Position numbers and translations under genes: made by a program. From Heterodontus francisci (Eukaryota): DNA of 64,000 nucleotides. The notes under the pieces were generated by a model. It was not told the DNA's origin and did not search any database. It saw only the letters and a list, made by a program, of their open reading frames with translations. Of the stretch, positions 7,074 to 63,679 are shown one piece after another. The DNA lies in assembly GCF_036365525.1 (NCBI RefSeq), contig NC_090387.1:90003691-90067690 (forward strand), read 5' to 3'. The number at the start of each line of letters is the position of its first letter. The first letter of the stretch is position 1.

Positions 7074-7241
7074 ACCAAGCAAAGGACACCTGATAATAAG
7101 CTGACTTACGCTGCTGTATCTATGGCAGGGTCAAAGAAAACAGCAAAGCCTAATTATAAGGATAAGAGCACGGAGTATGCTCAGCTACGGATTGAAAAAC
7201 GAAGAGCAGACGTGATTTACACCGAACCGAAAGTCACGTGA
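7074..7241 (+). CDS. Gene B terminal cytoplasmic exon with ITIM/ITSM-like motifs (paralog of gene C; upstream exons lie outside the window)
   Basis: Acceptor gattttacag, phase 0: TKQRTPDNKLTYAAVSMAGSKKTAKPNYKDKSTEYAQLRIEKRRADVIYTEPKVT*. Motifs LTYAAV, TEYAQL, VIYTEP. The preceding ~5 kb aligns with the distal introns of gene C. Confidence 0.82.
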   Translation, partial: TKQRTPDNKLTYAAVSMAGSKKTAKPNYKDKSTEYAQLRIEKRRADVIYTEPKVT

Positions 7242-12753: not shown

Positions 12754-14650
12754 CACTCAGCAGGTTTGGCAGCATCTGTGGAAAGAGAAGCAGAGTTAAA
12801 GTTTCGGGTCAGTGACCCTTCTTCGTAACTAGCAAATATTAGAAATGTCAAAGGTTATAAGCAAGTGAGGCGGGGATGGGGCAAGAGATAACAAAGGAGA
12901 AGGTGTAGATTCGACAAGGCCACATTGCTGACCAAGAGGTCATGGACCAAAGGCAAACAATATGTTAGTGGTGTGTTGAAAGACAAAGCATTCGTACAGA
13001 TTGGGTGTTAACGAACTGAAGATTGAACAGCAGCAAGTACAAAGATGAAAATAAAAACAGTGGGTAAGCAAACTGAACAAACTACAATGAAGTGAAATAA
13101 ACAAAAGAAAAAAATTGTAAAAAATAAAAAATAACTAAAAATGAAAATAAAATGGGGGGCCCGTCACGCTCTGAAATTATTGAACTCAATGTTCAGTCCG
13201 GCAGGCTGTAGTGTGCCGAATCGGAAAATGAGATGCTGTTCCTCGAGCTTGCGTTGATGTTTAGTGGAACACTGCAGCAATCCCAGGATAGAGATGTGAG
13301 CATGAGAGCAGGGGGAATGTTGAAATGGCAAGCAACTGGAAGCTCAGGGTCCTGCTTGCGAACTGAGCGGAGGTGTTCCGCAAAGCAGTCACCCAGTCTG
13401 CGTTTGGTCTCCCCATTGCAGAGGAGGCCACATAGTGAGCAGCGAATACAGTATACTACATTGAAAGAAGTACAAATAAATCGCTGCTTCACCTGAAAGG
13501 AGTGTTTGGGGCCTGGTATAGTGAGGAGAGAGGAGGTAAATGGGCAGGTATTACACCTCCTGCAATTGCAGGGGAAGGTGCCATGGAACGGGGATGAGGT
13601 GGTGGGGGTAATGGCGGAGTGGACCAGGGTGTCGCGGAGGGAATGATCCTCCACCATTTCTGCTGCCTCCAACGTGATGCCACTACCAAACGCATCTTCC
13701 CCTCCCTTCCCCTGTCAGCACTCTGAAGGGATCGTTCCCTCCGCGACACCCTGGTCCACTCCTCCATTACCCCCACCAACCCGTCCCCGTCCCATGGCAC
13801 CTTACCCTGCAATCGCAGGAGGTGTAATACCTGCCCATTTACCTCCTCTCTCCTCACTATCCCAGGCCCCAAACACTCCTTTCAGGTGAAGCAGCGATTT
13901 ACTTGTACTTCTTTCAATGTAGTATACTGTATTCGCTGCTCACTATGTGGTCTCCTCTACATTGGGGAGACCAAACGCAGACTGGGTGACCACTTTGCGG
14001 AACACATCCGCTCAGTTCGCAAGCAGGACCCTGAGCTTCCGGTTGCTTGCCATTTCAATACTTTCCCCTGCTCTCATGCTCACATCTCTCTCCTGGGCTT
14101 GCTGCAGTGTTCCAGTGAACATCAATGCAAGCTCGAGAAACAGCATCTCATTTTCCGATTCGGCACACTACAGCCTGCCGGGCTGAACATTGAGTTCAAT
14201 AACTTCAGAGCGTGACGGGCCCCCCATTTTACTTTTATTTTTAGTTATTTTTTATTTTTTATTATTTACATTTTTTACAATTTTTTTTCTTTTGTTTATT
14301 CAATTTCATTGTAGTTTGTTCAGTTTGCTTACCCACTTTTTTCATGTTTGCACTTGCTGCTGTTCAATCTTCAGTTCGTAACACCCTATCTCTCCTAATG
14401 CTTTGTCTTTCAACACATCATTACATATTCTTTGACTTTGCTCCATGACCTGTTGGTCAGCTGTGTGGCCTTGTCCAATCTACCCTTCTCCTTTGTTATC
14501 TCTCACCCCACTCCCGCCTCACTTGCTTATAACCTTTGACATTTCTAATATTTGCTAGTTCCGAAGAAGGGTCACTGACCCAAAACGTTAACTCTGCTTC
14601 TCTTTCCACAGATGCTGCCAGACCTGCTGAGTGGTTCCAGCATTTCTTGT
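12754..14650. mobile_element. Penelope-like element 3' part (GIY-YIG endonuclease) as a head-to-head fold-back; left terminus continues at 9298-9352
   Basis: CNRRRCNTC and NVVYCIRCSLCGLLYIGETKRRLGDHFAEH...VACHFN...GLN; arms 12754-13649 (-) and 13729-14633 (+). Confidence 0.92.
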
Positions 14651-24150: not shown

Positions 24151-24156
24151 AAGAGA

Positions 24157-24330
24157 TAATAAAAGCAAAATACTGCGGATGCTGGAAATCTGAAATAAAA
24201 ACAAGAAATGCTGGAACCACTCAGCAGGTCGGCAGCATCTGTGGAAAGAGAAGCAAAGTTAACGTTTCGGGTCAGTCACCCTTCTTCCAAGAAGAAGGGT
24301 TCCAAAGAAGGGTCACTGACCCGAAACGTC
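24157..24330 (-). mobile_element. Short Penelope terminal fragment folding back at a hammerhead-like motif
   Basis: aaaagcaaaatactgcggatgctgg...tttcgggtcagtcacccttctt followed by an inverted gaagggtcactgacccgaaacg. Confidence 0.75.
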
Positions 24331-26221: not shown

Positions 26222-28399
26222 CCGGGTGTGCTTTTTTTTTGCCGTGTCCAAATCCTTCGATGTTGGCTGTCCAGCCGTTTTTATTCTTATTATACTTTCA
26301 TGTAGTGATGCAATTGTTTTTGTAACTCTGAAGTTGTACCATCGTTAATAGTCATTATAATAATATCCCATATCAGAATAAACGCAGAGGTGAAAATATT
26401 TCGCGAATGGGTGTTACAGATATCACACAAACACTTTGGAGAGATGCAATTAAAGACAAGTTCTCAATTGAAAGGTTTGTATTAGTTTCGCTTCCAAAGC
26501 AGCTCTTGTTTTAATGGAGCACACCTAACAGCAGAAGTAACTGGATTGCATCGCCATACAATGCATAATTATTGGCACAAAATGACCTCAGTTTTCTTGC
26601 ATAACTCCAGAAGCTTTCCTCGATAAAATATATCTATAATCATTCACAAGGCTTGATTGCATTTTGGCCATTTATGGCATTCTCAAACTCATCTTCACTC
26701 CACTCTTTAAGAATTTGCAGTTTTGGTCCAACCAGTACAACGCTACACCACAGGTCAGTCCGCATCCCAACAATTAATGCATCTGTGCAACGAAATTGAG
26801 ATCAATACAATTTTTAACTTTAGCAATCCTTACATTTATTGATTACTTTTACAAGCCGTCACTTTCCACAACCAAGAAGCCGCGGTTATGGCTAGATGAT
26901 GAAATTGGATGAGTTGCATTTAAAACTGTTCATTTATTTTCCTCCTGTTTGATAAGATATTCCTGTGATTATCAATTGAACCTTATTATGATGCAGCCTT
27001 AATCAATTCCAAACTTTCAACACATAATAATTGATCTTTTAGCAATGCACTGTTTTAGCACGAAATTGAATTCTGCCACCTGCGTACCACTATGAATTAG
27101 ATAGGAAACTAAAAACGAACAGTTTTTAAGCCCCTCTAGAATTACCTATTATACACACAATAATATGTGCAGTTTCATTTATTGAGTTGTATGACGAGTT
27201 GTACAAACATTTATGAATTTGTGGTTAAAATACTTTCAAAAACGAATAATATTCAGTTCAGTGAGCGAGAATTTCTTTCTAAAGGCAGCAAAAAGATTGC
27301 GAAAGTATTTCCAGAAGCCTTTCACCACTGCGGTTTTCCTCGCGTTCATGTCTGGGTCTGTTGTAATCTAATTGATAGAGATTCATTGCCATGCTTAATC
27401 AACAACGTTACTATCATTACATGATGCGAAGAACAAGATAGTAGAAGGAGCATTAGATGGGCCAGTGATTGGTTCCTAAACCACCTTTGCAACGTATCCA
27501 GTATCTGGGTGCCTTCGATTAGTTTTCTTTCCGAATGTGTCTAATATAAAACCACCTAGATTTGAATAACATGATGCAAGTTGTTTAGAAATTGGTGGCA
27601 GGAAAATTTCGGACTCTATAGGATTTTGTTTGAATAGGCGCATTAGAGTTACTAATCATGAGTGAAGGGTTCGGTTTTGTAACTCCTGAAGTTTTCCAAC
27701 AATCAATAGACGTCATTGCAATTTAGATCGGCTCTAAAGTAGAGGTACATATAAAATGTCCTGGTTGTTAGTTTTGAAATAGATCGTAAGCATCACGCCA
27801 CTGTAACGATAGAGTTTGCTGTGTTCGGTGTTTAAGGATTCAAAACGATACTAGAAGAATGTCCCATTTTGGTGTATGCAAATTAGCATATGAGTGAAAT
27901 GTTAGACCGAGCGAAACGGGTTAAATTACTCATTCAGTCCAATGTATTAATAGGTTCTAAGACATCTTAACTACGAACAAAGTGTCGTTTATACCTAATT
28001 TATTAACTGTATTAAATGTACTCAGTAACTTTATGTAAAAATGATCTGAATTCATATACATAGTAGAATGGGGTCACGTTTCACTTCTATCTTCAGACGT
28101 TGTCGGTCAGGTAAGGGCCTCATAACGAGGTCAGTGGCCTTGGCACCCTGTTCAGACAACAGAGGCCCAGGCATGTTGAAAAGGACCGACCGCAATGTGC
28201 CCGAAGTGCCTCCTGCTTCAGTTGGTAACCCCGTTTAATATGCAAAAGGAGCCGTAGGATCCACATTTTCATTTTAGGTCAGGACTAGTCGAATGCTTTG
28301 TTCTGCAAACTCTGACGAGCTCCGCAGGCCAAAGAGCGAGAGAGGCCTAGACACGTTAAGTGTTGAATTTTATGTTTTCGGTCCCTAAGGAGCAGCCGT

Positions 28400-31300
28400 A
28401 CGCTGGGAACATGGGCCACGTGGAAACTCCGGGAAGCGTCTCGTGGGACCCGAAAGGTTGAGTGATTCTTGGCTAGCATCTTTATAGATGTGGTCACCCA
28501 GCATGTATGCAGGTAGAGAGGGAATGGGTGACCGCCAGGTAGTCCAAGAAGATACAGGCAGGTAGTGCAGACGACCTGTGAGTGCGTCTCACTCTCCAAT
28601 CAGTATTCAGTTCTGAATACTGAGGAAAGTAATGGTCCACCCGGGGAGTGCAGCCAAAGCCAAGGCCATGGCATCACAGCTGGCTCAGCTGCACAGAGGG
28701 GTACAAAGAATACAAGAAGAGTGATAGTGATAGGAGATTTTATACTCCGGTGAACAGTCAGGCATTCCTGTGGCCGCAGATGTGAAACCAGGATGGTATG
28801 TTGCCACGCTGGTGCTATTGGGGAGGGTTTAAACTAACTTGGCAGGGGTGGAGGACCAGGCGGAAGTATGAGAGAGGAATACAAATGTGTACAGAATATT
28901 TCGAGAGATAGATAACACTAGAGTAGAGAATAGTCTTATTAGGTAGGGTCAGAGTAAGGGAGAAAGTAATGAACTCTAAATCAGGGTTAAAGTACATATT
29001 TGTTAATGCAGAGTATTGTTAATAAGATTAGTGAGCTACAGGTGCAGAGTGATATGTGGAAATATGATGATTTGGCTGTAACAGAGATCTGGCTCAAAGA
29101 ACGGCAGGATTGGGTGTTAAATTTACCAGGATATAAGGTATACAGGAAAGATAGAAAAAGAAGAATAGGAGGAGGAATGATAGTATTGATTAAGGAGAGC
29201 ATTGCACTGCCGGAGAGGGTTTCCCCGAGGGGTCAAGGATGGAATCTATTTGGCTAGCGCTAAGGAACAAAAAAGGTGCAATTGCATTGCTCGCTGTAGT
29301 CTATAGGCCACCAACTAGTGGGAAAGATGTAGAGGAACAAATTTGCAAGGAAATTACAGAGATATACAAGAATTGTTGAGATATAATGGGGGACTTCAAT
29401 TATCCGAATATAGACTGGGATAGTAGTAGTGTAAAGGGCCGTGAGGGCAAGAGTTCCTAGAGTGTGTTCAGGAAAAAAAATCTACAGCATTATGCTTCCA
29501 GTTCAATGAGAGGGAAGGCATTGATCGGTCTTGGGAATGGGGTGAGCCAAGTGGATCAAATATCAATAGAACATTTAAATGACAGTGATCGCTGAATCAT
29601 AAGGTTTAGGTTGGTTATGGAAAAGGACAAAGAATAATCCAAACTATGAATTATTAACTGGGAAAAGCCATATGTGATTGGTTACACTGGATCTGGGCTG
29701 AATAAATTGGAATCAAAGGTTGGATGGAAAAACGGTAGCTAAACAATGGGCTGTCTTCAAATAAGAGATACTTCTGGCACAGATCAGATATATTTCCTCG
29801 AAGGGGAAAGGTAGAGCAAAGAAATCCAGAGCCAGGATGACAAAAGAGATAGAGATGAAGATGAAGAAGAAAAACTGTGCTTATGACAGATGTCAGGTAT
29901 ATAATACAATGGAGGACCAGGCTGAAATAAAAGGCTCAGAGGGGAAGTGAAAAGGCAAATAAGAGAAGCAAAGAGACAATATGAAAAGAGACTGAGAGCT
30001 AATATAAATGGAAATCCCAACGTTTTATATCGGCATATAAATAGAAAAAAGGGGTGGTAAAAGGTGGAGTAGGGGCGATTAGGGAACCAAGAAGGGGATT
30101 TACGCATGGAGGCAAGGAGAATAGCTGAGGTATTAAATGAATACTTTGCATCTGTCTTTACCAAGAAAGAAGATGCTACCCAGGCAACAGTGAAAGAGGA
30201 GGTAAATAATACACTAGAATGATTTAAAATTGATAAGGAGGAAGTATTAGGTAGGTGGTCTATACTTACAGTTGATAAAAACTAGGGCCAAATGAGATGC
30301 ATCCAAGGATACTGTGGAAAGTGAGAGTGGGAAATGTAGAAGTACTGGCCATAATTTTCCAGTCTTCTTTTGACTCGGAGTGGTGCCAGATGACTGCAGA
30401 ATTACAAATGTTACACCCTTGTTCAAAACAGGATGTCAACATAAGCCCAGCAACTACAGGTCAGTCAGTTTAACTTTGGTGGTGGGGAAAAAGCTGCAAA
30501 CAATAATTCTGGACCAAATTAACAGTCACATGGACAAATATGGGTTACTAAAGGAAAGCCAACACAGACTCATTAAGGGAAAATCATGTTTAACTAACTT
30601 GCTAGAGTTTTTTGAAGAGGTAACAGAAAGGGTTGATGATGGCAATGCTGTTGATGTAGTGTACATTGACTTCCAAAAGGTATTTAATATAGTGCAACAC
30701 AACAGATTTGTGAGTAAAGTTATAGCTCATGGAATAAACAGGACAGTAAAAACATGGATATGATATTGGCTGAGTGTTAGGAAACAAAGAGTAGTGGTTA
30801 ATGGATGTTCTTTGAGCTGGTGGAAGGTTTGTAGTGGAGTTCCCCAGTGATCAGTGTTGAACTCTTGCTCTTCCTGATACATTAATGATCCAGACCTTGG
30901 TGTGCAGGACATAATTTCACATTTCACACTTGGAACAATTGAGAACTGTGAGGAGGATGGCATAGAACTTCAAAAGGACATAGACAAGTTGGTGGAATGG
31001 ACAGACAAGTGGCAGACGAAGTTTAATGCGGAGAAATGTGAAGTCATTCATTTTGGTAGCAAGAACATGGGGAGACAATATAACATAAAGGTTACAACTC
31101 TAAAGGGGTTGCAGGAGCAGAGGGACCTTGAGGCATATGTGATAAGCCATTGAAATTGGCAGAACAGGTTGTGAGAGTGGTTAATAAAGCATACAGTATC
31201 CTGAGCTTTATTAATAAGCGCATAGAGTACAAGAGCAATGAAGTTATATTAAACTTGTATAAAACACTAGTTTGGCCATAGCTGGAGTATTATGTCCAGT

Positions 31301-31825
31301 TCTGGGTGCCGCACTTTAGGAAGGATGTGAAGGCATTGGACAGAGGACAGAAAAGATTCACAAGAATGCTACCAGGGATGAGAAACTTCAGGTATAAAGA
31401 CAGATTGGAGAAGTTGGGACTGTTTTCATTGGAGAAGAGAAGGTTGAGAGGAAATCGAGGTGTTCAAAATCATGAGGGGTCTGGACAGAGTGGATAGGGT
31501 AAAAGTTTTCCCACTTCTAAAAGGATCAAGAATGAAAGGGCACATATTTAAATTGATTTGCAGAAGAAGCAATGGCGACACGAGGAAAACCTTGTTCATG
31601 CAGACAGTGATTAGGATCTAGAATGCACTGCCTGAGAGTGTGGTGGAGGCAGATTCAATTAGAGCATTCAAAAGGGAATTAGGTTGTTATATAAAAGGGG
31701 ATAATGTGTAGGGTTAACTCGAGAAGGCGGGGGAATGGCATTAGGTGAATTGCTCGTTCAGAGGTCCGGTGAAGACACGATTTGCCGTATGGCATCCTTC
31801 TCCGCTGTAACAATTCTGTGATTCC
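28400..31825 (+). mobile_element. Degraded near-full-length CR1 LINE
   Basis: ORF1 LSNQYSVL...VIVIGD; ORF2 QSIVNKISEL...IGGG and RT motifs; attctgtgatt tail. Confidence 0.9.
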
Positions 31826-32450
31826 TGACCACACAAAAGGAAAATGATTTGGGCTGCTGCCGCCTCGGAACCTCCACACCGGCCATCGCAAGGGCCTGGC
31901 TGGCGAGTGAAGAGGCCGTCATAGCAATGAGCTGAATCGGGAAGTGCGTTAGATGCCTGGTCGCTAAACTGCCCAATATAAATAAAGACAGGGCCATGGC
32001 TACGGGTGAACGTGTAACGCGCTATGCCTGTCAGTCGCCTGCCCTAAAGAATGAATCCTCTGTACGGATTCAAGCCATTCGCCCGTGAAGTCTGTGTCAG
32101 TGGTTTACACTGTAGCAGATAGATTGGGAGTTATTTCAACCCCTGCCAATGGTGGGAAACGGGCGATACTGGATCCATGGCCCTTTATCAATCAGCCACA
32201 ATTTTCCATTCGGTGGAGTCATTGGAAAGGAAAATCAGGCGGAGTTTATAATGTGCGGCCAATTCCGTATTGCTCTTTTTTATTAATTTATTCCCGGGAT
32301 GTAGGTGTCGCTGGCAAGACCAGCATTAATTGCCCATCCGTAATTGTCCTTCAGAAATTACAATGATCTTGACATCTTTTATTCTTTTCAGTTCCTGTTT
32401 GCTCTCTGTCCTGTCCTTAAGCTATCGCCCGTCCGTGATAAATTAATGTC

Positions 32451-32542
32451 TTACCTTTCAAAGCAGTTGTTCAAAAAATGATCCATAATAATTATCGTCA
32501 GCAGCAAAAGGACCAATACGCTCAATATAAATCGAGGGAAAA
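32451..32542 (-). CDS. Gene A exon 4, transmembrane and short tail (VFPRFILSVLVLLLLTIIIMDHFLNNCFER*)
   Basis: Pyrimidine-rich acceptor ttgcatatttcctag in phase 1; hydrophobic stretch; ends GAA AGG TAA, which is also a possible AG|gtaaga donor at 32455. AATAAA on the - strand at 32383-32378. Confidence 0.8.
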
Positions 32543-35500
32543 CTAGGAAATATGCAAAGAAAAATTAAAATCGGGCGGTTTATATAACGCGCAGCCGAGC
32601 TCAAACGCGGGATTTATTCTCGGATGCCAAAAAGAAACTCTACCCCATTGTATTCCTGACCCTACATTCCAACAATGTAGTAGAGAGATTTTGAATTTTC
32701 TTTATGAAACAATAAAGATCTTCAGTTCAAAGTGTTAGTGAAATTGCGTTAATAATGTGTCGCAAAACGTTCTTTAGAGAGTGGATATGGCATGTCCTTG
32801 ATAGGCGCTTTTATTTAGATAATATCGGTATTTTAACCACGTTTAAAAAAATAATGTTGAATAATCAGCTTAACATGGGCTGAGACCAGAAGTATCAGAT
32901 TGTCTCGTTTTGGCTTGTTGGTTGAGAGGTCCTGATTCCAGATTTACAGACTACATTTTGCTCTGGTGCTAAGCTAACTGGCTTCCCGCCGACGCTACAT
33001 TTGCTCTGTAAATGCATATTCGTTTACCTCTAACTGTTTGTGAGAAATTCGGCACATTAGAAATCGCAACAGTGAATGTCACGTAAGTTGGAGCCGGTAG
33101 GGTGAGATGAGACACTTGACAAGTATAAACAGCCCCGCTCCGGACGGACTGTGTCTCCATTAATAGGCTGGAAACTTCATACAGTCCGTCTATGTTCAAA
33201 CTTTTGGTTGTCTCTATGTCGATTGTAATCTCAATCCCATCTTTATACCAAGTAAGGTTGAGAGCCTCCGGGTAAAACTCATCCGTTTTGCACACAAGAT
33301 CCAGAAGAGATGAGTTTAATTCAGGTACTTTGGGGAAAATCCGCAGCGGAGTTGGCGGAACTGTAAGGGGAAAAATATAGGTAAAAATTTGGGTTATTTT
33401 GTTCTTGTGTGTACCAATTGTATTCTTTATCAGCTGTACTTAAATAGGATGCAATTAATGTATCTTAGTGTTGAAGGGACATCACGATATTTTATTCATT
33501 ACATAAAAAAGCAAGCGCAGTTTAACTAGATAACATGAATTGACATAAATGCCTGTTCAAATTTTGCTTGTATGTTAGTATAATTTGACAGTGTCAGCAA
33601 TGGTTCTGTTATAAATTTCAAAATTAGCATTTTGTTGCTTTTGAAATATTCGTCAAAGTTGCCATACATTTTTCATCTGTATAATCTGAAGAAATAGCAC
33701 ATCTGTTACGATATTAATGGTGAATGTGTTAAAAAAGAAATACTAATTATACTGTTAAAAGCATGTGATAACACTATCCATCTTAATTACAGTATGGTAC
33801 CATCCATTCAATGTTATCATTTGATATTAAATAATGTGTGAAGTCTGTCACAGCATTAAATAGTAAATATGTTTTAGTATTAAACAGAAAATGTGTTGCA
33901 ACATAAAACGCTAAATATTTTGTGGTATTAAATAATATGTTAGTCTAAAATGGTAAAAAAAAATACAGGATAATATAAACATTTTAACCATACCAAATAG
34001 CAAATTATTGCCGCCTGGAATTGAAGATGTGTGACGTTAAATAGCAAATATGCTTCAAAATAAAATAGCAAATGTAATGCCTTATAAAACTGCATACATT
34101 GCAGTATGAAATAGAAAATATATTGCTGTATTAAGTAGAGAATATGTTGTATTATAAAATAACAAACAAGCTACAGTATAAAGTAGCGAATATGATGCAT
34201 TACTAAATAGTAAATATGTTGCAGCATTAGATAGCTAATTTGTTCCAGTTCGAATTCTCCAATATGTTGCCGCATAAAATAGCCAATCTGTTACAGTATA
34301 ACATAATAAATATTTAGCAGTATAAAGCATCAAATTTGTTTCTGTATAAAATAGCAAATATGATTGCAATACAAAATACTGAATGTACTGGGTTGCGAAA
34401 TAGCAAATAAGTTGCTGTATACAATTCTAAATACTTTTAATATAATGAGATAACCCGTACGCGCAGAGGTTTTATCAACAGCTTGGAATTAATGCGCAAA
34501 ATGACCAGCGCCTTTATTAAATAGCGTATCGCTTTATTCAGCTTGGAAATTGACAACAGAAATCGCTCTTGTGTGGGAACATACTATCCCTGCAAATCCA
34601 ACATTTACTTACAAATGTTATTGAGCCCAGCCCCAGTGACCTGGGTGACATGTTATTGCGGGACATGTGTGTTTTTTGCGTTCGGCATCGCCAGAGTTGA
34701 AGGTGGACTATCCGATTTCACCTGGTTTTATGCTGTTGGCTACAGATTGGGGTTGCCGGGAGGGAAGCATCAGCTCATACAACTTGGAGCACTTGTACGT
34801 TTCTAGAGGGTGAATAGTTTTAAATAGACATCCAGCGCAAGTTATATTAAAAATCATCTTGTTCCCTTTATCGTGCCTGATAAAGTTGTTTTTTTCACCG
34901 TGAGAATTCACATTGAACAATGAACAACATCGTCATGTTGTAATTTCAGCTTGTATTATGTTAACGGAGAGGAACAGCGGTACAGAATCAATTGAGAAGT
35001 ACTTTAATCTGCACTTAGTGCATACGAAATATTTTTACACGACCATATCGGGCATTTAAATATTTTGAACTTTAGGGCTCATATTCCAGATGTGTGAAAC
35101 AAAAATGTTCCTTCTATTTTAACACAAATAATATGCAACGCAACTAAGGATATTTTTTAAAAAACGAATAAGGAATTGTCAGCTGCATGTGGCTAGTCTG
35201 GATACTAGCCGGTGCGCTCTTGATGCTTGTAAAACATTCCACAGTTTAATGACATAGGTGTTAAATAAAAACAAGAAATGCTGGATTCACTCAGCAGGTC
35301 TGGCAGCATCTGTGGAAAGAAAAGCAGAGTTAACGTTTCGGGTCAGTGACCCTTCTTCGGTGTTAACCTGCTTATTTTAAAATGGAAGGTAGATTTTCAA
35401 CTTGCCGCACGGGCGTTACACTAATATTCAGGATGATCCACCTGATATCGTCACACATACCGGGCTGTTTCTGCAATGCAGGGGTGATCGCAACAATTTT

Positions 35501-36224
35501 TACCTAATTTGAAATTAGACGCCAATACATCCCAGGGTCGATTTTCCATTCAATGGAAATAAACATCGAGCGCAGTTTATAAATGGAGAGTGCATTCAAT
35601 AACGCTGCTGAGCGGAACGTTGAAGATTAGTCCGAGTATATTTTTGACCAAATATTCAGCAGCCATAATTATTTGAAAGTACCCAACATTTGCGGTTGCT
35701 TTCTCCACCTATTACCACCTACCGGCGACGCTGATGGTTGAGCCTGTTCCATTTACAATCCTGCTTCGCAGCGTTCTGACTCCGCAGTAATAGACCCCAG
35801 AATCCTGCGCACTGATATTCAGGAGATGAAAGGAGGCTCCGCCTTGTTTAAAACGGAGAATTTTTTTCCTGCTGTCGGAAGCTGTTTGCAGAAAGTTACT
35901 TTCGCCAAGTTTCCACCAATAAACTTCCACATCTGAGTTATCTTGAAAAATGGGAAATGTGCAATAAAACGTGACGTTTGAACCTACGAGGGCGCTCGTG
36001 CTTTCAGGAGCTTGGAAGACTTGGAACTGAGCGTCAATAGCAACTGTCAGAAAACAATGATGTTAATTATATAACTATCTATAAGACACGAAATGTCAAT
36101 GCAAAGGCAAATTATAGATTCAAAAAGAGAGAGGAGAGGGAAGAAAGGAAAAGAAGCAGCAGAAGATACCTGTGCACATAATCCCCAGGACTCTTATAGA
36201 CTGAAGCGCATTAGCAATAAACAT
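32451..36224 (-). CDS. Gene A: non-rearranging VJ-C1 IgSF membrane receptor, putative activating type (SIRP/NKp30-like); exons 36224-36170, 36043-35723, 33360-33028, 32542-32451
   Basis: Four exons with GT-AG introns, all phase 1, joining into an open frame: leader, V-set domain ending in a J-like GxG strand, C1-set domain, TM with N-terminal Arg and a short tail. Exon-for-exon paralog of gene C (leader 55 nt and V exon 321 nt in both). Confidence 0.88.
33028..33360 (-). CDS. Gene A exon 3, C1-set Ig domain plus short stalk
   Basis: Acceptor ccccttacag, donor G|gtaaac. VPPTPLRIFP...LVCKTDEFYPEALNLTWYKDG...DGLYEVSS...YTCQVSH: FYP, W and YxCxVxH C1 signatures. Confidence 0.92.
33845..34430. 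repeat. Degenerate 24-bp AT-rich minisatellite (about 24 units, consensus ~TAGCAAATATGTTGCAGTATAAAA) in the gene A V-C1 intron
   Basis: Consecutive units tagtaaatatgttttagtattaaa / cagaaaatgtgttgcaacataaaa / cgctaaatattttgtggtattaaa and onward. Confidence 0.8.
35265..35358 (-). mobile_element. Mini Penelope terminal insertion with 8-bp TSD
   Basis: ggtgttaa at 35257-35264 and 35359-35366; the insert stops within the ccgaagaagggtcactgacccgaaac motif. Confidence 0.75.
35723..36043 (-). CDS. Gene A exon 2, V-set Ig domain with germline-joined J-like strand
   Basis: Acceptor ttttctgacag, donor G|gtagg. VAIDAQFQVFQAPESTSALVGSNVTFYCTFPIFQDNSDVEVYWWK...NISAQDSGVYYCGVRTLRSRIVNGTGSTISVA: B-strand Cys, Trp, DSGVYYC, GTGS. 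Confidence 0.93.
36170..36224 (-). CDS. Gene A exon 1, leader (MFIANALQSIRVLGIMCT)
   Basis: ATG at 36224, 55 nt, donor ACAG|gtatct; aligns with the gene C leader (LQ..VLGI..T). Confidence 0.8.
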
Positions 36225-41278: not shown

Positions 41279-41477
41279 AAAAACAAAATACTGCGGATGC
41301 TGGAAATCTGAAATAAAAACAAGAAATGCTGGCACCACTCATCAGGTCTGGCAGCATCTGTAGAAAGAGAAGCAGAGTTAACGTTAAGGGTCACTGACCC
41401 GAAACGTTAACTCTGCTTCTTTTTCCACAGATGCTGCCAGACCTGATGAGTGGTTCCAGCATTTCTTGTTTTTATTA
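41279..41477. mobile_element. Palindromic mini-Penelope insertion with 17-bp TSD
   Basis: About 74-bp inverted arms around aagggtcactgacccga; cgccgcattattattat at 41262-41278 and 41478-41494. Confidence 0.85.
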
Positions 41478-53653: not shown

Positions 53654-53708
53654 ATGTTAGCGACTGTTGTACTTCAGTGCCTCTCTGTTTTGGGGATCAG
53701 TTTCACAG
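53654..53708 (+). CDS. Gene C exon 1, leader (MLATVVLQCLSVLGISFT)
   Basis: agaATG, hydrophobic signal-peptide-like sequence, 55 nt, donor ACAG|gtacct. Confidence 0.85.
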
Positions 53709-56700
53709 GTACCTGTTCGTTCTACAACTTGCCTTTTTATTAAATGTGGCAGTTATTAACTTTACTTTGATATAGCATGTTTCATTTCCCTTTGTACATA
53801 TTCCCTGATTCCCTTATTCTGGCGCTTTTCCTTCTGTCATACTCTCTCATTATTGTATTTTCCGATAGGCTGCAGCGAAACTTCGGTCAAAGTGACTCAG
53901 CTCCCTGAAAGTACAAGCACAAACTCGGGTACAAATGTTTCATTTCATTGCACGCTTCCCTTCTTTCAAGATGGCCCAACTGTGAATGTCTCCTGGTGGA
54001 AGCAGGGTGATAATCAATATCTAAGCACAGGACAAGATGGCAGAAAAGTAATTGGCTTCAAGACTAAATTCAGCGGCTTCCTACAAATAATTAATGTGAG
54101 TGTACAGGACTCAGGAGTATACTATTGCACTGTCACCCATCGAGGCAAAATCGTTGGAAACGGAACGGGATCCAATTTAGCTGTATGGGGTAAGGATAAA
54201 AAAAAGCGAATGAGATCCATGTAACTGTAATATTTCACAACTCGCAAAATTTATTGATTGTACTTCGAAGGATTCAGATCGCAAATTAAATTCTATCCTT
54301 TTAATATGAATACATTGAAATTGCACTTGTGACGGCTGCAGTTATTTTCTGATATGCATCACAATATTTCAGCAATATTGACCAAGACAAGGATTATCGC
54401 TTAGTTGTTTTATCCCAAAATGCACAGTAAACGTATGCAACAAACTACTGAAGTTATAATTGCAGGATCATTTACGGAGGTGTATATCTCGACAGTATTA
54501 GATGCTACCGCGCGAATCTGAAACAGTGAGCATAGATCTTACCCTATTTGAGATTTAGTGTCTTTCTGTTACGAGCGGCTGACTGTTTCTATCGGGATTC
54601 AGATTTCTGTAATTATAATTTAGCAATCTATATGGCAGGATCTTTGAACGGTCATATTACCAACAGCTAAAGTTTACACTCGGTAGCTTGAGCATCCCGC
54701 CACATTTTTTCTTCATGATTTTGACCTCCTTAAATAAGGTATCATCCTGGAACTTGGTGGCAATTTCCCTCTAGTTTGGTAAATTATATGTTATCATCAG
54801 TTTTTATGTTCAACAGGGTGGAATTGTCCGCAGCGGTACCGCGAAACAGGGCGAGCAACGCAAATTACATCCTGCTCAATTTTCTTTCCCATTACAACAG
54901 AAAATTGGGCAAGCTATAAACCGGCGACTCACTCGGTATCATCCCATTTCTTTTCTTTTTGCCCCGCGGTAACATTACAATTACCGCCGAAATAAGAGTG
55001 AGACTTGTGAAAATCCGTTTACGATATACCTACTGATAGTGCAAAGTGAACATTGATGCAGTGTGAGAAAGTCTGGCCCGTCCCACCCGCGAGCTCCTCC
55101 AGTGTATAGTTAGAAATGGGCTCAAACAAAACGTTCGGTTGTTAACCTTGATTGATGTCCCATTAACGATATTTTCCTTCATTTTTTTAGTTCCGCCAAC
55201 TCCACTGAAAATTAAATCTCAGCAACCTGAGAAGGATTCATCTGTTTCTCTGACTGTTCTGTGTATGACATCTCCCTTTTATCCGGAAAACATCAGTTTC
55301 ACTTGGTATAAGGATGGCACCAAAACTACAACAGGGATAAATAACGTTATCGAACCCAACACCGACGGACTATATGAAGCCTCCAGCCGTTTGCAAGAGA
55401 CGCAGTTTGTCCTTCCCGGAACTGTTTATACTTGCCTGGTCTCTCACAGTAGCCTCCAAATTTCAGCCATGGCCACTTACATTGTCACTTATCCCAGCAC
55501 AGGTAAGATTTCTGATAAAAGCGAAGAATATTACAGCATAGGAAGAGGCCAGTTGGCCCAGCGTGCCTGTGCGGCGTCTTTGAAAGAGCTGTCCAGTTTA
55601 GTCCCCATAACTGTGCAAATTAGACCCCTTCAAGCAACATGTCCAATTGCCTTTTGAAAATTCCTGTATAAATTGCTTCCAACAACATTTCAGCTTGTGT
55701 ATTCTACATCTCAACAACCCCCATGAGAAAAGAATTTCCCTCAAAACTCCTCTAGTTATTTTTTGCCAATAGTTTTAAACCTATGCCTGCTGGCTATCGA
55801 CCCATTTCTTCAGAGGAAAATTTCTCCCTACTTAATTCATTAAAACCCTTCATAATTTTGAATACGTCTATTTGGTATCTTTTTAATCTCCTCTAGTCTA
55901 ATGTGAAAATCCCAGGTTCGCCATTCTCTTCACGTAGCTGAAGGCCCTCCTCCCTTCTAAAGCCGGTAAATCTCGTCTGTATTCTCTCCATGATCTTGAC
56001 AGTCTTCTTAAAACATGGTGCCCAGAACTGTGCACAATAATCTAACTGAGAATTAACCAGAGATTTGTCAAATTTTGCATGGCTTCCCTGTTTTTGTATC
56101 CAATGCCACTAGCCACAAAACCAATTATCACACAAGCTTCCTTAACCGGCTTATTAACTTGCTCTGCCACCTTCAAAGATTTGTAAATATGCACCCTCGC
56201 TTCTCCTGAATCAGTAGGCCCCTCAAAATAGCACATTCAGATTATACTACCTCTCCATGTTGTTTCATCCAAAGTGGAAACTCACACTTATCCACATTGA
56301 ATTACATCTACCATTCGTCTGCTTCTCTGACTGTTCTGTGCATGTATTTTCTCCTAATGTCTGCTACTACCCTTCTCACCATTTGCTATGTTACCAATTT
56401 TGCATCATTAACAATTTTCAAATTGTACTCCCTATATCAAGTCCAGGTTATTTATGCATATCAGGTAAAGTAGTGGTCCTGATACTGATCCCTGAAGGAA
56501 TCCCACTGCATATTTCTCTCCTGTCAAAAAATCCACTCTCTGCCACCTATCACTTAGCAAATTGTATACCCAAGGTACCTCGGTGCTATAAATCTTATAT
56601 GCCATAGCTCAACATTCTTTTGTTTCATAAAACTGTACCTTAATCCAAAAATATTAAATAAAGATTTGCATTTATATAACGATTTTCACGACCACTGGAC

Positions 56701-59700
56701 GTCTCAACAGCCAATGAAGTACTTCTGAAGTATCGTCAATGTTGTAATGTAGTAAACGTGACAGCCAATTTGCACACAGCAAGCTCCCACAAACAGCAAT
56801 GTGATAATGACCATAGAATATGTTTTGTAATGTTGATTGAGGGATAAATATTGGCTAGCACACCAGGGATTACTCCCCTGCTCGTCTTTGAAATCCTTCC
56901 ATGGTCTCTTTTGCATCCACTTGAGAAGGCAGGTGGGGCTTTGGTTAAACATCACATCTGTAACACAGCACCTCCAACAGTGCAGCACTCCTTCAGTACT
57001 ATATTGGAGTGTCAGCTTTAATTTTTGTGTTCAAGCTCTAAAGTAGGACTTGAACCTAGAACCTTGCAACTCAGAGGCAAGGGTGCTACCAACTGAGCCA
57101 TGGTTGATGCCAACTTCAACACTTGACTAAAAAAAATCGAATTTTCTATCTTTCAGTGCATTTTCTTAATGAATTAAATAACGTACAGATTCGGATTTAT
57201 ATATTTCATTTGCATCTTGTAGGTGATGAGATCACCCGTTATTTGCTGATTTCTGCATCTGCAGGGGGCGGGTTGGTATTATCGATGCTAGCTCTCATCA
57301 TTGTAAACCGATGTCTCTCAAAGAAAAACAACGGTGAGAAATATATGTTTCTTTTTGTTTTACTAAAGTTAGTACAAGTTTCAAAGAGACAGAGGTGATT
57401 ACTGAACACCAAAGTTTTCCTGTGATTTACAATATATGGGATCCTACACACTTCAGGGTACCAGTGTAGAGATAGATTAAAAGTTCTGAAATCGAGTGGA
57501 ATTTTCCAAGGTCTCCAGCCGCCGACAGAGATTCGGGATCGAATTTTATGGGCCTGCTAGTGACTAGAATGGAGGCGGGGGCCATAAAATATCGACGGAA
57601 GGCTGTGGGTGGACTGCCCTTAGCTTCCCATTGCCTTTCATGACAGGAAAGGTCTTCCCATCCAGAGGCCAATTGAGGCCATTAAGAGGCCAATTAATAG
57701 CCACGTAAGGGCCTCTTCCCTTCGCTGCTGCCATCCTAATAGAGGTGGGGGTGCCTGGAATTGGGGATATTCCAGTAAAACAGGGTGACCTCCCTACAGT
57801 CTTTGGTGGGCCTCCTCTGTGGGCAATCTGTGGCCCACAGAGGGTCACCAGCGGCAAAGGCCACCTCTCCATGAATAGCGCCCCCCCCCCCCCCACCCCA
57901 ACGACCTAGATAGCTCTCCCCCGAGCCAGAATTTGCCGGACAAGCCGGACTAGCGCTGGCGACCTGACCACGCTTTCTGGGGTTCTGGGGTTCCAGTGAT
58001 CGGCCTCTTGTAGTATCAGCATTGGTCACCGCTCCCAGTAATGATGCTAGTACTATTGATCTGCCGGCCCTCTGATTGACTAATAGTGCTTGGAGGTGGG
58101 TTCCTCATCCTGAAAGAGATGGGTTGCACGGCCCAGGCAGTTAGTTGCCTGAGTGTCGTTAAATAGAGATGGGGGGTGGGGGGAGGTGGTCTACAAAGGG
58201 CTGAGGCGAGGTTCTTCTCTCCTTTTAGGCCCAGCGTCGGGACCCCTGCGGGCTCGAGGAAATTCTGCCCTCGGACTCAGTGGCTTCTTTATTGCAAAAT
58301 CTCCTTTCATTGCCTGCGATTTAACGCCATTGGGTCAATGAATGTAACATTTTGGGTCATGTCAGTGCGATGTTTCAATCAGTCTCACACTACCTCAATG
58401 GCATCTGAACAATTTTACTTCTATTGTCAGAAGTGATTACAAACCAAGCAATTCTGAACAACAAATGTGATACCTAGGTCATGTTATAATTTACAATGAA
58501 TCAACCTGGGCTGTAAACTGAGAGAGGGGAATGTGCAACGGGACTCGGGTATCCTCCTACACCAGTCGCTGAAGGTGTAACAGGCGATAAAAAGGGAAAA
58601 TGGCATGTTGTCCTTCATAGCGAGAGGATTCGAGTACAGAAGCAGGGATGTCTTGCTGCAATTAAACAGGGCCTTGGTGAGGCCACACCTGGAATATTGT
58701 GTGCAGTTTTGGTCTCCTTATCTGAGGAAGGATATTCTTGCTATAGAGGGAGTGCAGCGTAGGTTTACCAGACTGCTTCTTGGGACGGCGGGACTGATGT
58801 ATGAGTTCGTTAGGATTATATTCGCTGCAGTTCAGAAGAGTGAGGTGGGATCTCAAAGAAACCTATAAAATTCTAACAGGACTTAACAAGGTAGATGCAG
58901 GAAGGATGTTCCTGATGGTGGGGGAGTACAGAACCAAAGGTCACAATCTAATGATACGGGGTAAACCTTTCAGGACTGAGATGAATGGCGGAACAGGCTC
59001 CAAGGGCCGAATGGCCTGCTCCTGCTCCTATTTTCTATGTTTCCATGTTTACCAGAAGTGTCTTTCCAAGCCGAGTAAATGTTTAATCTTAAGTCTTAAA
59101 CTTCATTCGTCAACAGGAGTGCAGAACGATGGTGCAAGATCCAACTCTCCTGAACAGGTAGGTTTTCATAATTCGTAGTAATGTATTTCAAATGTAAATA
59201 TATACATAACAGTATTGTAATCTATTTAATGCAATAATTTGTCAAGTTTAATTCCCTGCTGCACAGATTCATACAAAATAGCACAGGCTGAATTCAGCAC
59301 TTATGCAACAGACAGTCTTCTGCTGCACATAACTAGTAAAAGGGTGGTAAAAGGACGAGTGGGGCCGATTAAGGTCCTAAAAGGGAATTTATTCACGGAG
59401 GCAGAGAGCATCGCTGAGGGACTAAATGAGTACTTTGTATCTGTCCTTAACCAGGAATAGGTTGCTCCCAAAGTCATGGTGAAAGAGGAGGTTGTTGAGA
59501 CACTGGATGGGCTGAAATTGACAAAGAGGAGGTATTAGATAGACTGGCAGTACTTTAAGTTGATAGGTCACCAAGACTGGATGAGATGCATCTAAGGATA
59601 TTTAGGGACGTAAGAGTGGAAATTCCAGATGAACTGTCCATAATCTTCCAATCCTCCTTGGATACAGATGTGTTGCCAGAGAATTGCAAATGTTACACTA

Positions 59701-62700: not shown

Positions 62701-63679
62701 TACAGTTGTCCCAGACTCCCCACTGTCACCCTGTGCTATTTCAATCCCATCAATTCGAAAATTGCGACACAGATTTTCCAATTATGCCCAATTTCATAAC
62801 ATGATCTAAATGGTTTTTCCTATTTTTGCTGCAACAAATATGTAGCTTCCAGTATATAAGCCTTGACAGCTGCAGGTTATTTCAAGCAGTGAGTCATGTT
62901 AATGGACTACAGGGATGAGCTTTGATCCCTCATATTTGGTAATTTTCTAGACCTGGAAATTGCATGGGGTTTCCATAACTTAATGGAATACTCTCAGAGA
63001 ACTGGCCAAAAGAGCGTTTTCAGCCATTTCCCCTATTTCTCCGGGGATTCTCGTAATCACGAAGCCAAGTGAGATCAGGAAACGGGTTGTAGCTCTGTGG
63101 AGTTCTGAAGACAGATTTTCACGAAAAAGCGTTTGGGCGTTCAGCAATAAACGCACGTGCAGCACACAAACGTCAATCTGGTTGGTAGGATCGCACTTCC
63201 CAATGAATGTATTTATATCAATTTCAATGGTGGGAAAATACATCGGGTCCTGTTGCCAGCAGCGCCTTCGCCGGAGTTTCCATTCTGCGCTCAGGGCTGG
63301 CGATGCTTAAAGCCCAGTCGCTAAAGACCAGACCCTCTTTTCACTGCCCCACCAACTGTTTATTTTTGTAAATAAGACTCATTCCGCCTGCTGGGCACTG
63401 ATGGCGCAGGCAGACACAGAGCAGCAGTGACTGATATCGCATCCATTCAGTTAATGGATGGACTATGGAGTTGCATTTTCCGTCCCTACTCGCATCCTTC
63501 TGCACACGGAGAGCCCAACCGAATTTATCTGACAACATAACAAGATATATATGTTTGTCCTTCAGTCCATGCAGGGCGCAGCCGATGTGATGGCGCCTTA
63601 TGCTGAACTCGAGATAACGAATTCCTTGAAAGCTCCAAGACCAAAGCATCAAGAAAGGACAACGCATGCCCAGATAGGG
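53654..63679 (+). CDS. Gene C: non-rearranging VJ-C1 IgSF membrane receptor, putative inhibitory type (SIRP-like tail), 3' incomplete; exons 53654-53708, 53869-54189, 55191-55502, 57223-57333, 59117-59157, 63566-63679
   Basis: Six GT-AG exons with intron phases 1,1,1,1,0,0 giving 954 nt (318 codons) without a stop. The terminal ITIM exon is predicted about 350 bp beyond the window by homology with 7074-7241. Confidence 0.88.
53869..54189 (+). CDS. Gene C exon 2, V-set Ig domain with germline-joined J-like strand
   Basis: Acceptor ttttccgatag, donor G|gtaagg. VKVTQLPEST...NVSFHC...VSWWK...[32 protein letters not shown]; 46/107 identical to gene A V with no gaps (hand count). Confidence 0.94.
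55191..55502 (+). CDS. Gene C exon 3, C1-set Ig domain
   Basis: Acceptor atttttttag, donor AG|gtaaga. VPPTPLKI...[20 protein letters not shown]...DGLYEASS...YTCLVSH. Confidence 0.93.
55520..56600 (-). mobile_element. Old CR1 3' fragment in a gene C intron
   Basis: SLKVAEQVNK...GIGYKNRE remnant; ccagaactgtgcacaata. Confidence 0.7.
56664..57105 (-). mobile_element. Deu-SINE (SacSINE1-like)
   Basis: Reverse complement of the 6535 family including head and ttgcatttatata tail. Confidence 0.78.
57223..57333 (+). CDS. Gene C exon 4, transmembrane (GDEITRYLLISASAGGGLVLSMLALIIVNRCLSKKNN)
   Basis: Acceptor catcttgtag, donor G|gtgaga, phase 1-1; about 22 uncharged hydrophobic/small residues followed by a basic stop-transfer segment. 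Confidence 0.87.
57494..58270. mobile_element. GC-rich MITE, possibly Harbinger-derived
   Basis: Imperfect termini gagtggaattttcc / ggaaattctgccc and internal quasi-symmetry. Confidence 0.4.
58520..59045 (+). mobile_element. CR1 3' fragment
   Basis: RGFEYRSRDVLLQL...LEYCVQFWSPYLRKD. Confidence 0.85.
59117..59157 (+). CDS. Gene C exon 5, small cytoplasmic exon (GVQNDGARSNSPEQ)
   Basis: Acceptor ttcgtcaacag, donor CAG|gtaggt. 41 nt converts phase 1 to phase 0, as the next exon requires; lies in a unique island between LINE fragments. Confidence 0.7.
59330..61530 (+). mobile_element. Degraded CR1 fragments (paralogous to 1473-4930)
   Basis: RVGPIK...LNEYFVSV and RT remnants. Confidence 0.8.
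63566..63679 (+). CDS. Gene C exon 6, cytoplasmic tyrosine-motif exon (SMQGAADVMAPYAELEITNSLKAPRPKHQERTTHAQIG)
   Basis: Acceptor tttgtccttcag, donor GGG|gtgagt, 114 nt, phase 0-0; YAEL motif; aligns with the ITIM exon at 7074. Confidence 0.78.

What the first reader, a model, noticed from the sequence alone, without database searches (positions are those of the whole stretch)
53869..55502. Germline-joined VJ exon plus a single C1 exon without RSS: architecture of a pre-rearrangement antigen receptor
Seen: in both genes one exon encodes the whole V domain through a J-like G strand (NGTGSNLAV / NGTGSTISV) and splices directly to a C1-set exon (FYP, WYK, YxCxVSH). I see no heptamer/nonamer around the V exons. 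The usual F/W before GxG is replaced by Asn, creating a conserved NGT sequon. Known: C1 domains are largely confined to Ig, TCR, MHC, b2m, tapasin, SIRP and a few relatives, and a VJ-C1-TM gene is the proposed substrate into which the RAG transposon inserted. Inference: these genes may descend from that stock, or be truncated SIRP relatives.
Basis: partly seen in the sequence, partly recalled or inferred. Interest (0 to 1): 0.75.

Follow-up and report, generated by a model that had tools for sequence, protein, structure and literature searches.

The report
Shark paired VJ-C1 immune receptor family
These horn-shark genes each encode one unsplit antibody-like V domain, one C1 domain and a membrane anchor, and belong to a clustered family found across sharks, rays and chimaeras whose members carry either inhibitory-type tyrosine tails or an activating-type membrane arginine, so they likely work as paired off/on innate immune receptors rather than being relics of the gene that gave rise to antibodies.

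Summary
Gene A has a single V exon with a J-like end (53869-54189) and one C1-set exon (55191-55502), with no RSS nearby. Its partner, gene B (minus strand, 26755-36224), is spliced leader-V-C1-TM-tail in RNA contigs that match the germline.

Gene B has a membrane arginine and a short tail (activating type). A neighbouring paralog ends in an ITIM/ITSM-like pair resembling SIRP-alpha's. Gene A has an uncharged TM and a tyrosine tail running out of the window.

Relatives occur in 22 named chondrichthyan species, on one contig per assembled species. They form a supported clade apart from SIRP, UrIg2, IgH/IgNAR, NITR and B7-H6; IgL and TCR were not in the trees. In three species the cluster lies outside the antigen-receptor complex. 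Activating tails recur on at least five separate ectodomain branches.

Best reading: a germline-encoded paired inhibitory/activating receptor family, SIRP-like in logic, ligand unknown. Descent from the RAG-invaded gene is not supported, but not excluded. I found no description in ten literature searches, though key papers were unavailable. This scan noted the family before on other DNA (33 findings, at least 16 genomes).

The parts
53654..53708 (+). Gene A leader exon (coding part; 18 codons + 1 base, split leader)
   Evidence: Exact match to NCBI model P0005 residues 1-19, GT donor
53869..54189 (+). Gene A V exon, whole domain including J-like G strand with Asn at the F/W position
   Evidence: Pfam V-set 40.4 bits; 100% identical to P0005; AF2 strands A-G
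55191..55502 (+). Gene A C1-set exon
   Evidence: Pfam C1-set 52.5 bits; contig joins it to the TM exon
57223..57333 (+). Gene A transmembrane exon, no charged residue in the helix
   Evidence: Run X5 contig joins 55500 to 57221; P0005 match
59117..59157 (+). Gene A first cytoplasmic exon
   Evidence: P0005 match and splice consensus
63566..63679 (+). Gene A cytoplasmic exon with one Tyr motif (APYAEL); ends in phase 0, so the distal ITIM-pair exon would follow beyond the window (inferred, not seen)
   Evidence: close paralogs P0008 and P0012 continue into the ITIM pair
36170..36224 (-). Gene B leader exon (coding part; contig reaches 36286)
   Evidence: Run X6 contig, joint 36170 to 36043
35723..36043 (-). 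Gene B V exon with J-like G strand
   Evidence: Pfam V-set 37.3 bits; contigs with 0 differences
33028..33360 (-). Gene B C1-set exon
   Evidence: Pfam C1-set 51.8 bits; V-C1 joint in runs X5 and X6
32455..32542 (-). Gene B transmembrane exon with Arg at the outer end of the helix (activating type)
   Evidence: C1-TM joint in X5 and X6; exon type shared by 11 family proteins, 9 with Arg
26755..26782 (-). Gene B last coding exon: 8 residues and stop, no tyrosine
   Evidence: 28-nt loose end of an X5 contig equals this stretch
7074..7241 (+). Last exon of a third paralog (tail of P0009) with ITIM (LTYAAV) and ITSM-like (TEYAQL) motifs 23 residues apart
   Evidence: 100% match to P0009 residues 281-335

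Best explanation
Genes A and B belong to a clustered, non-rearranging cartilaginous-fish family of leader-V-C1-TM proteins that likely work as paired innate immune receptors, with tyrosine-tailed members predicted to inhibit a leukocyte and membrane-arginine members such as gene B predicted to activate it. Shown: exon structure, splicing of gene B, no RSS, two kinds of signalling end, a single clade, and activating ends on unrelated ectodomain branches. Inferred: the short, glycan-shielded V binds ligand alone through its loops. Inferred: on engagement the ITIM/ITSM pair is phosphorylated and recruits SHP-1/SHP-2. Inferred: the Arg helix pairs with the Asp pair of an FcR-gamma or CD3-zeta dimer and signals through its ITAMs. 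Inferred: tails and ectodomains are swapped by recombination in the cluster, as expected if inhibitory members read a self marker and activating twins counter microbes that mimic it. Gene A is likely inhibitory; its distal ITIM exon lies outside the window. Ligand and cell type are unknown.
For: Of 139 stored family proteins, 49 have a strict ITIM, 31 have the distal Tyr pair and 11 share a distinct short-tailed TM exon type, 9 of them with Arg; none of the 11 has the pair. Arg at the outer end of the TM is the FcR-gamma/zeta docking signature of CD89, NKp30, NKp46, LILRA2 and PIR-A (passages of PMC13107469 and PMC2413239). The family tail profile aligns twice to SIRP-alpha tails, 43-49 bits. 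Gene B's ectodomain is 82% identical to an ITIM-tailed sevengill-shark protein; Arg-type members need 6 changes on the ectodomain tree (at least 5 forced by starred branches) and one clade is rejected, p-AU 0.006. The family is one clade: V 98/96, C1 99/90, V-C1 100/99. Members from each assembled species share one contig length; 16 horn-shark protein clusters, some of them isoforms, sit on the same 99.65-Mb contig. Gene B contigs match the germline exactly.
Against: No functional data, ligand or tissue source. 72 of 139 proteins have a TM without a motif (37) or no TM (35); many look like truncated models, but some may be real non-signalling or secreted forms. Activating forms are a minority (11 of 139). 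The ITIM+ITSM module is common to many SHP-recruiting receptors (own knowledge), so the SIRP-alpha likeness may be convergent. By fold the ectodomain matches B7-H6 (Z 15.1, rmsd 3.8, 193 aligned) no worse than SIRP-gamma (Z 13.6, rmsd 5.7, 199 aligned). Gene A's own ITIM pair was not seen, and NCBI isoform X2 ends without it.
Confidence: 0.75

Rival explanations
1. These are the true chondrichthyan SIRP orthologues, in a one-C1 form. The mechanism is the same as in the best explanation, with CD47 as the ligand of some members.
For: The tail repeats match SIRP-alpha best. C1 scores 36-62 bits against SIRP d2/d3. SIRP-alpha is third among PDB hits of the profile. No canonical three-domain shark SIRP was recognised among the 73 and 150 hits listed. 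Family+coelacanth V-C1+SIRP is one side of a branch in the V-C1 tree.
Against: That branch has only 62/38 support. The V scores higher on turtle multi-V receptors (40-56 bits) than on SIRP V (27-38), and no SIRP V is among the top 60 PDB hits of the V profile. One C1 rather than two. The activating TM has an outer Arg, whereas SIRP-beta1 has a central Lys for DAP12 (recalled). Coelacanth has both a SIRP and a separate V-C1-TM-Tyr gene.
Confidence: 0.3
2. One reading: the family is a surviving sister lineage of the VJ-C1-TM gene that the RAG transposon invaded.
For: It has the expected layout: split leader with a short intron (126-160 bp), one VJ exon, one C1 exon, TM. UrIg2 and Ig chains top the PDB hits. 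The best single-V fold match is a skate VNAR (Z 14.7, rmsd 2.0, 99 aligned). Arg-type docking is shared with TCR-alpha (PMC13107469). Deep tree nodes are unresolved.
Against: The family falls on the opposite side from UrIg2/IgH/IgNAR (87/88, not starred). The V is shortened and has lost F/W118 (0 of 83) and mostly Gln44 (14 of 83). It is not in the antigen-receptor complex of white shark, catshark or stingray, judged from contig sizes and gene ids, and it is not listed on the catshark or sawfish MHC chromosomes. Several families share VJ domains (CD79, NITR, SIRP, CD8, NKp30, PRARP; PMC11599192), and UrIg2 has the better linkage claim (PMC12227049).
Confidence: 0.12
3. The family descends from a germline-joined Ig light-chain or TCR gene that later gained a TM and ITIM exons.
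For: Sharks have germline-joined IgL genes (PMC12227049, discussion read). Fab light chains fill the Foldseek list and NCBI names several members IgL-like.
Against: Identity to light chains and TCR is only 20-28%. The best ordinary Fab light chain scores 74 bits against 116-571 for family members. No F/W-G-x-G, a short V, and no Cys between C1 and TM in gene A or B. Gene B has no TCR-alpha-type Arg+Lys pair.
Confidence: 0.07
4. The proteins are B7/butyrophilin-like ligands or adhesion molecules rather than receptors.
For: The top whole-ectodomain fold match is B7-H6; PD-L1 fills the V-profile hits; some members have motif-free tails.
Against: The J-like G strand is absent from B7-H6-type V rows. 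The family is separate from B7-H6 rows in the trees. Conserved ITIM pairs and an Arg TM imply signalling.
Confidence: 0.05

Closest known systems
SIRP family (SIRP-alpha, -beta1, -gamma; PDB 2wng, 4i2x)
   Same: Non-rearranging J-like V plus C1-set ectodomain; clustered inhibitory and activating members; tail built of LTYAxL ... EYAxI/L units.
   Different: One C1, not two; V outside the SIRP clade and shorter; activating TM has an outer Arg rather than the central Lys recalled for SIRP-beta1; CD47 binding untested.
UrIg / UrIg2 (PMC12227049, PMC10751288; PDB 9dmx)
   Same: Shark non-rearranging VJ exon, split leader, C1 domains.
   Different: These have 3 or more C1 domains, form disulfide-linked dimers and lie in the MHC or antigen-receptor complex. 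The present family has one C1, ITIM or Arg ends, many copies, another chromosome and its own clade.
NITR (teleost; PMC7916673 passages)
   Same: Multigene, non-rearranging VJ-type receptors with activating and inhibitory forms.
   Different: The second NITR domain is not C1 in the goby row examined; NITR V rows fall apart from the family.
PRARP and Xenopus VJC1 genes (named in PMC10751288 and PMC11599192; primary papers not read)
   Same: Two-domain non-rearranging VJ-C1 layout.
   Different: Orthology not testable here, as no sequences were at hand. The coelacanth V-C1-TM-Tyr protein XP_005987622, sister in the C1 tree at 92/78, may be such a gene.
NKp30, LILR/PIR, Xenopus XFL paired receptors (PMC13107469, PMC2413239 passages)
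   Same: Outer-TM Arg for FcR-gamma/zeta; activating and inhibitory ends combined with shuffled ectodomains.
   Different: They have no C1 domain (recalled), and the NxxR motif of TM1 is not conserved in the shark Arg exon.
Turtle multi-V receptors (XP_037733860, XP_053904980; automatic names only)
   Same: Best non-chondrichthyan V scores (40-56 bits), similar short V and G strand, Arg-TM and ITIM forms.
   Different: 4-6 tandem V domains and no C1; tree link not supported (85/85 group that also holds B7-H6).

Membership tests
C1-set IgSF domain | Pfam C1-set best; (F/Y)(F/Y/H)P; xVxH; 13 residues Cys-Trp | tested here: met
   features from PMC2785349
VJ-type V domain | V-set domain with G-x-G G strand in one exon | tested here: met
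   C'/C'' region reduced, Cys spacing 54-59
Rearranging Ig/TCR | Split V and J with RSS; somatic junctional diversity | tested here: not met
   0 RSS near the V exons; gene B contigs identical to germline, although contigs drop rare variants
Rearranging Ig/TCR | V-V pairing residues (F/W118, Gln44) and an interchain Cys after C1 | tested here: not met
   F/W 0 of 83, Gln 14 of 83, no stalk Cys in genes A or B; residue numbering recalled
Germline-joined IgL or TCR chain | Nests in IgL or TCR clades | not testable with these tools
   No IgL or TCR sequence was among the stored proteins; only profile scores and identities are available
SIRP | V-C1-C1 ectodomain | tested here: not met
   V-C1 in genes A and B and most members; one skate model has a recent tandem C1 copy
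SIRP | Domains group with SIRP | tested here: inconclusive
   Outside the SIRP clade (100/98); sister status 62/38
SIRP | ITIM/ITSM pair tail of SIRP-alpha type | tested here: met
   43-49 bits versus 7-14 for four other receptors; met for the family, not seen for gene A itself
SIRP | Activating member with central TM Lys (DAP12; recalled) | tested here: not met
   Outer Arg instead
SIRP | CD47 binding; synteny with the tetrapod SIRP locus | not testable with these tools
   No genome held; 63 other ORFs gave only LINE families in Pfam
UrIg/UrIg2 | Three or more C1 domains, G-strand Cys, location in the MHC or antigen-receptor complex | tested here: not met
PRARP / VJC1 | Orthology by tree and synteny | not testable with these tools
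   No sequences at hand; searches gave no primary paper
NITR | V plus non-C1 second domain; V clade | tested here: not met
   Second domain is C1; separate from two goby NITR-like V rows, labelled NITR by me from architecture
Paired immune receptors (functional class) | Clustered genes with similar ectodomains and opposite signalling ends | tested here: met
Paired immune receptors (functional class) | Leukocyte expression; SHP and ITAM-adaptor recruitment | not testable with these tools
   Tissue of the runs is not on record

The most novel reading that the evidence does not exclude
This is the main germline NK/myeloid self-recognition system of cartilaginous fish, and the living form of an early jawed-vertebrate VJ-C1-TM receptor from which both the SIRPs and the RAG-invaded antigen-receptor chain arose, with the Arg-to-zeta/gamma docking of TCR-alpha already in place.
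Probability: 0.12. Interest if true: 0.85.

Novelty: new variant of a known kind. Interest (0 to 1): 0.55.

Why it matters
Cartilaginous fish are the oldest living lineage with antibodies, TCR and MHC, yet none of my ten literature searches turned up a clustered paired-receptor family for them. A family conserved from chimaeras to rays, built like a single TCR chain but wired like SIRP or LILR, gives concrete candidates for shark NK or myeloid self-sensing that can be tested with reporter cells. It also adds a lineage that any account of the origin of SIRPs and of the pre-RAG VJ-C1 gene has to place. The genes are in NCBI under at least six misleading automatic names (IgL-like, SIRP-alpha-like, tapasin-related, B7-H6-like, MHC class II-like, FcRn-like), which hides the family.

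Tried and rejected
No whole genome is held, so synteny and copy number in this assembly could not be read.

The first C1 tree held gene A's V domain by a script error; it was discarded and rebuilt, also leaving out one long IgH row. The V tree used 41 of 58 extracted rows. Two B7-H6 C1 rows could not be cut and one family row had no match. All trees used LG+G4 without the mixture model, and outgroup labels (SIRP, B7-H6, NITR, UrIg2, IgH) are mine, from NCBI names and architecture. In one search my first Arg pattern missed five proteins; this was redone.

A hydrophobic Lys-bearing stretch near 25950 was considered as gene B's TM and rejected: it lacks a splice acceptor, and the RNA uses 32455-32542. 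No alternative inhibitory tail for gene B was found in the window.

Homodimer prediction of gene A's ectodomain gave no answer. The ESM Atlas gave only generic Ig clusters. Foldseek on the first, poorer model returned only Fab and TCR chains. The V-only profile (A4) came out with 265 positions including tails, which weakens. No listed run is on record as RNA; run X7 shows no cover of gene B's exons. Laying 20 kb over gene A was swamped by repeats.

Literature searches: searches found no description of the family. Two papers I wanted (the 2019 'primordial immune complex' paper and a 2022 review of innate receptors; identifiers recalled) are not held, and the PRARP paper was not read.

Full report
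Observation. The window is horn-shark DNA: the V exon is 100% identical to an NCBI Heterodontus francisci protein, P0005. Gene A on the + strand has a leader (53654-53708), one V exon (53869-54189), one C1 exon (55191-55502), a TM exon (57223-57333) and tail exons at 59117-59157 and 63566-63679. Gene B lies head to head on the - strand: leader to 36170, V 36043-35723, C1 33360-33028, TM 32542-32455 and a last exon at 26782-26755. One 1118-nt contig of run X6 crosses three introns with GT..AG ends and 0 differences from the window; run X5 shows the V-C1 and C1-TM joins, and its 28-nt loose end equals the last exon. The tool only guesses that these runs are RNA, but the intron-skipping joins show spliced transcripts. 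They are one sample, and contigs drop rare variants. For gene A only the C1-TM join is shown.

Domain 2 is C1-set by Pfam and by the hallmarks listed in PMC2785349 (passages read). No RSS-like site with up to 4 mismatches lies within 300 bp of either V exon. The Asn in place of the J-motif F/W is family-wide: 69 of 83 aligned members, with a sequon in 63 and F or W in none.

Gene B's TM begins with an arginine and is followed by a tail of about 15 residues without tyrosine. At 7074-7241 lies the last exon of a third paralog, with LTYAAV and TEYAQL 23 residues apart. Gene A has an uncharged TM and one Tyr motif in the window. Its last visible exon ends in the phase in which the ITIM exon begins, and its close paralogs P0008 and P0012 continue into that exon, so it is likely inhibitory. 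NCBI's isoform X2 ends without the pair.

The family. A profile search gave 73 proteins at E up to 1e-8 among 7996 candidates scored. Seventy carry names of 22 shark, ray, skate and chimaera species, two have the species cut off and one is unnamed. I took one of the cut-off rows, P0034, as Callorhinchus from its accession series (recalled). The exhaustive search gave 127 representatives at E up to 1e-30. Of 194 stored proteins, 139 pass a family cut-off. Of these, 49 have a strict ITIM, 7 a looser Tyr motif, 11 share a distinct short-tailed TM exon (9 with Arg), 37 have a TM without a motif and 35 no TM, many evidently partial models. Members from each assembled species share one contig length, which indicates one chromosome; in horn shark 16 protein clusters, some of them isoforms, are on the 99.65-Mb contig.

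On a tree of 30 ectodomains (21 with the ITIM pair, 9 Arg-type), the Arg-type ones need 6 changes, and a single clade is rejected (p-AU 0.006). Gene B is 82% identical to an ITIM-tailed sevengill-shark protein. A shared TM exon on unrelated ectodomains points to repeated swapping within the cluster. This is inferred; no DNA breakpoints were examined.

Relationships. The family is one supported clade in V (98/96, 41 rows), C1 (99/90, 45 rows) and V-C1 trees (100/99, 28 rows), apart from SIRP, UrIg2, IgH, IgNAR, B7-H6-type, NITR-type and MHC class I rows. IgL, TCR, UrIg, PRARP and NKp30 were not available, so nesting in those is untested by tree. Against IgL or TCR origin stand 20-28% identity, the lost V-V interface residues and the missing stalk Cys.

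Deeper nodes are unresolved and the domains point different ways. The V scores best on turtle multi-V receptors that also come in Arg and ITIM forms (40-56 bits; SIRP 27-38, UrIg2 20-24, IgH 16-25). The C1 scores best on a coelacanth V-C1-TM-Tyr protein (67.5), then SIRP (36-62), MHC class I (48-55) and UrIg2 (43-52). The tail scores 43-49 on SIRP-alpha against 7-14 on four other receptors. The AlphaFold model (mean pLDDT 83.6) shows a V with almost no C'/C'' and a C1. Its best matches, all within about 1.5 Z units, are B7-H6 (Z 15.1, rmsd 3.8, 193 aligned), HLA-DP beta-2 for C1 (14.9, 1.6, 99), skate VNAR for V (14.7, 2.0, 99), UrIg2 (14.0, 10.6, 199) and SIRP-gamma (13.6, 5.7, 199). Fold therefore confirms the domain classes but does not pick a family.

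Location. Table S1 of PMC12227049 (part 1 of 2 read) puts the antigen-receptor complex on white shark chr27, catshark chr17 and stingray chr26. In white shark the UrIg2-type protein sits on a 20.4-Mb contig and the family on a 193.5-Mb one. The catshark and stingray family gene ids are in other series and are not in the part read. The catshark member LOC119970986 is absent from the MHC-chromosome table of PMC10751288, and the sawfish MHC table has none of the four names searched; the white-shark and catshark sheets carry no product names, so this test is partial. The linkage argument that favours UrIg and UrIg2 as precursor relics therefore does not appear to apply.

Mechanism. An arginine at the outer end of a TM is how CD89, NKp30, NKp46, LILRA2 and PIR-A dock FcR-gamma or zeta (passages of PMC13107469 and PMC2413239). 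SIRP-alpha inhibits through ITIMs that bind SHP-1 and SHP-2 (PMC2785349). I infer that ITIM members restrain a leukocyte on meeting a self ligand, and that Arg members with near-identical ectodomains activate it. The V probably binds alone, since a glycan at the F/W118 position would block Fv-style pairing; the FG loop and D strand are the most variable segments (mean entropy 3.0 and 2.8 against 2.1 for the whole V). Ligand and cell type are unknown. Confidence 0.75. Rivals: true SIRP orthologues with the same mechanism (0.3), sister of the RAG-invaded gene (0.12), germline-joined IgL or TCR derivative (0.07), B7-like ligand (0.05).

Novelty. What I read: PMC12227049 parts 1-4 of 8 and supplement table part 1; passages of PMC10751288 with supplement searches; passages of PMC11599192, PMC2785349, PMC13262535, PMC7916673, PMC2413239 and PMC13107469; otherwise search listings. 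Ten searches showed no description of this family. PMC13262535 dates the SIRP family to tetrapods, although coelacanth and lungfish SIRP-type proteins turned up here. The primary papers on PRARP and VJC1 genes were not seen and may mention shark members, so the claim of novelty is limited.

This scan had already noted the family in 33 findings from at least 16 genomes. I had reached the paired-receptor reading before that look-up (note), and those notes are not independent support. Verdict: a real feature and a new variant of a known kind (paired IgSF receptors on a VJ-C1 frame), interest 0.55.

Noticed in passing
window 42915-42548 and 37836-37690 (-): NCBI's model of gene B (P0014, 'tapasin-related-like') has about 125 false N-terminal residues built from LINE reverse-transcriptase pieces; the spliced contig starts at 36286 and the leader ATG is at 36224.
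   Followed up: yes
P0199 / XP_005987622 (coelacanth): A V-C1-TM protein with two Tyr motifs, sister to the shark family in the C1 tree (92/78); coelacanth also has a separate V-C1-C1 SIRP (P0200). It is a possible bony-vertebrate survivor of the family.
   Followed up: partly
P0116, P0133, P0162, P0131 (turtles): A multi-V paired receptor family (Arg-TM and ITIM forms) with only automatic names; its V domains are the best non-chondrichthyan match to the shark V.
   Followed up: partly
Reedfish chr12 NC_041405.2, 0.3-12.5 Mb (supplement of PMC10751288): A cluster on the beta-2-microglobulin-bearing chromosome with the same mix of automatic names (SIRP-alpha-like, tapasin-related, B7-H6-like) as the shark family; kinship untested.
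   Followed up: no
P0009 versus P0008 (tail exon homologous to window 63566-63679): The upstream paralog lacks the membrane-proximal Tyr exon that genes A, P0008 and P0012 keep.
   Followed up: partly
P0111, P0138, P0142, P0174, P0013, P0021, P0022: Gene models with C1 skipped (V-TM-tail), a truncated V, or duplicated domains (V-C1-C1 in a skate, V-C1-V-C1 in the chimaera) suggest alternative splicing and domain shuffling; some may be annotation artefacts.
   Followed up: no
window 12754-14633 and 41312-41476: A 1.9-kb inverted repeat (arms about 89% alike, 79-nt centre) and a 165-bp near-perfect palindrome (82-nt arms, 94%) share end sequence with a short repeat also at 24156-24287 and 35263-35360.
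   Followed up: no
window 9914-12666 and 1-1477: A LINE element with endonuclease and interrupted reverse-transcriptase frames, and a 95.6% identical inverted partial copy at the window start.
   Followed up: no
window 19055 (-): An isolated 23-RSS-like site (perfect heptamer, nonamer with 2 mismatches; 0.2 expected) far from any V exon; probably chance.
   Followed up: no
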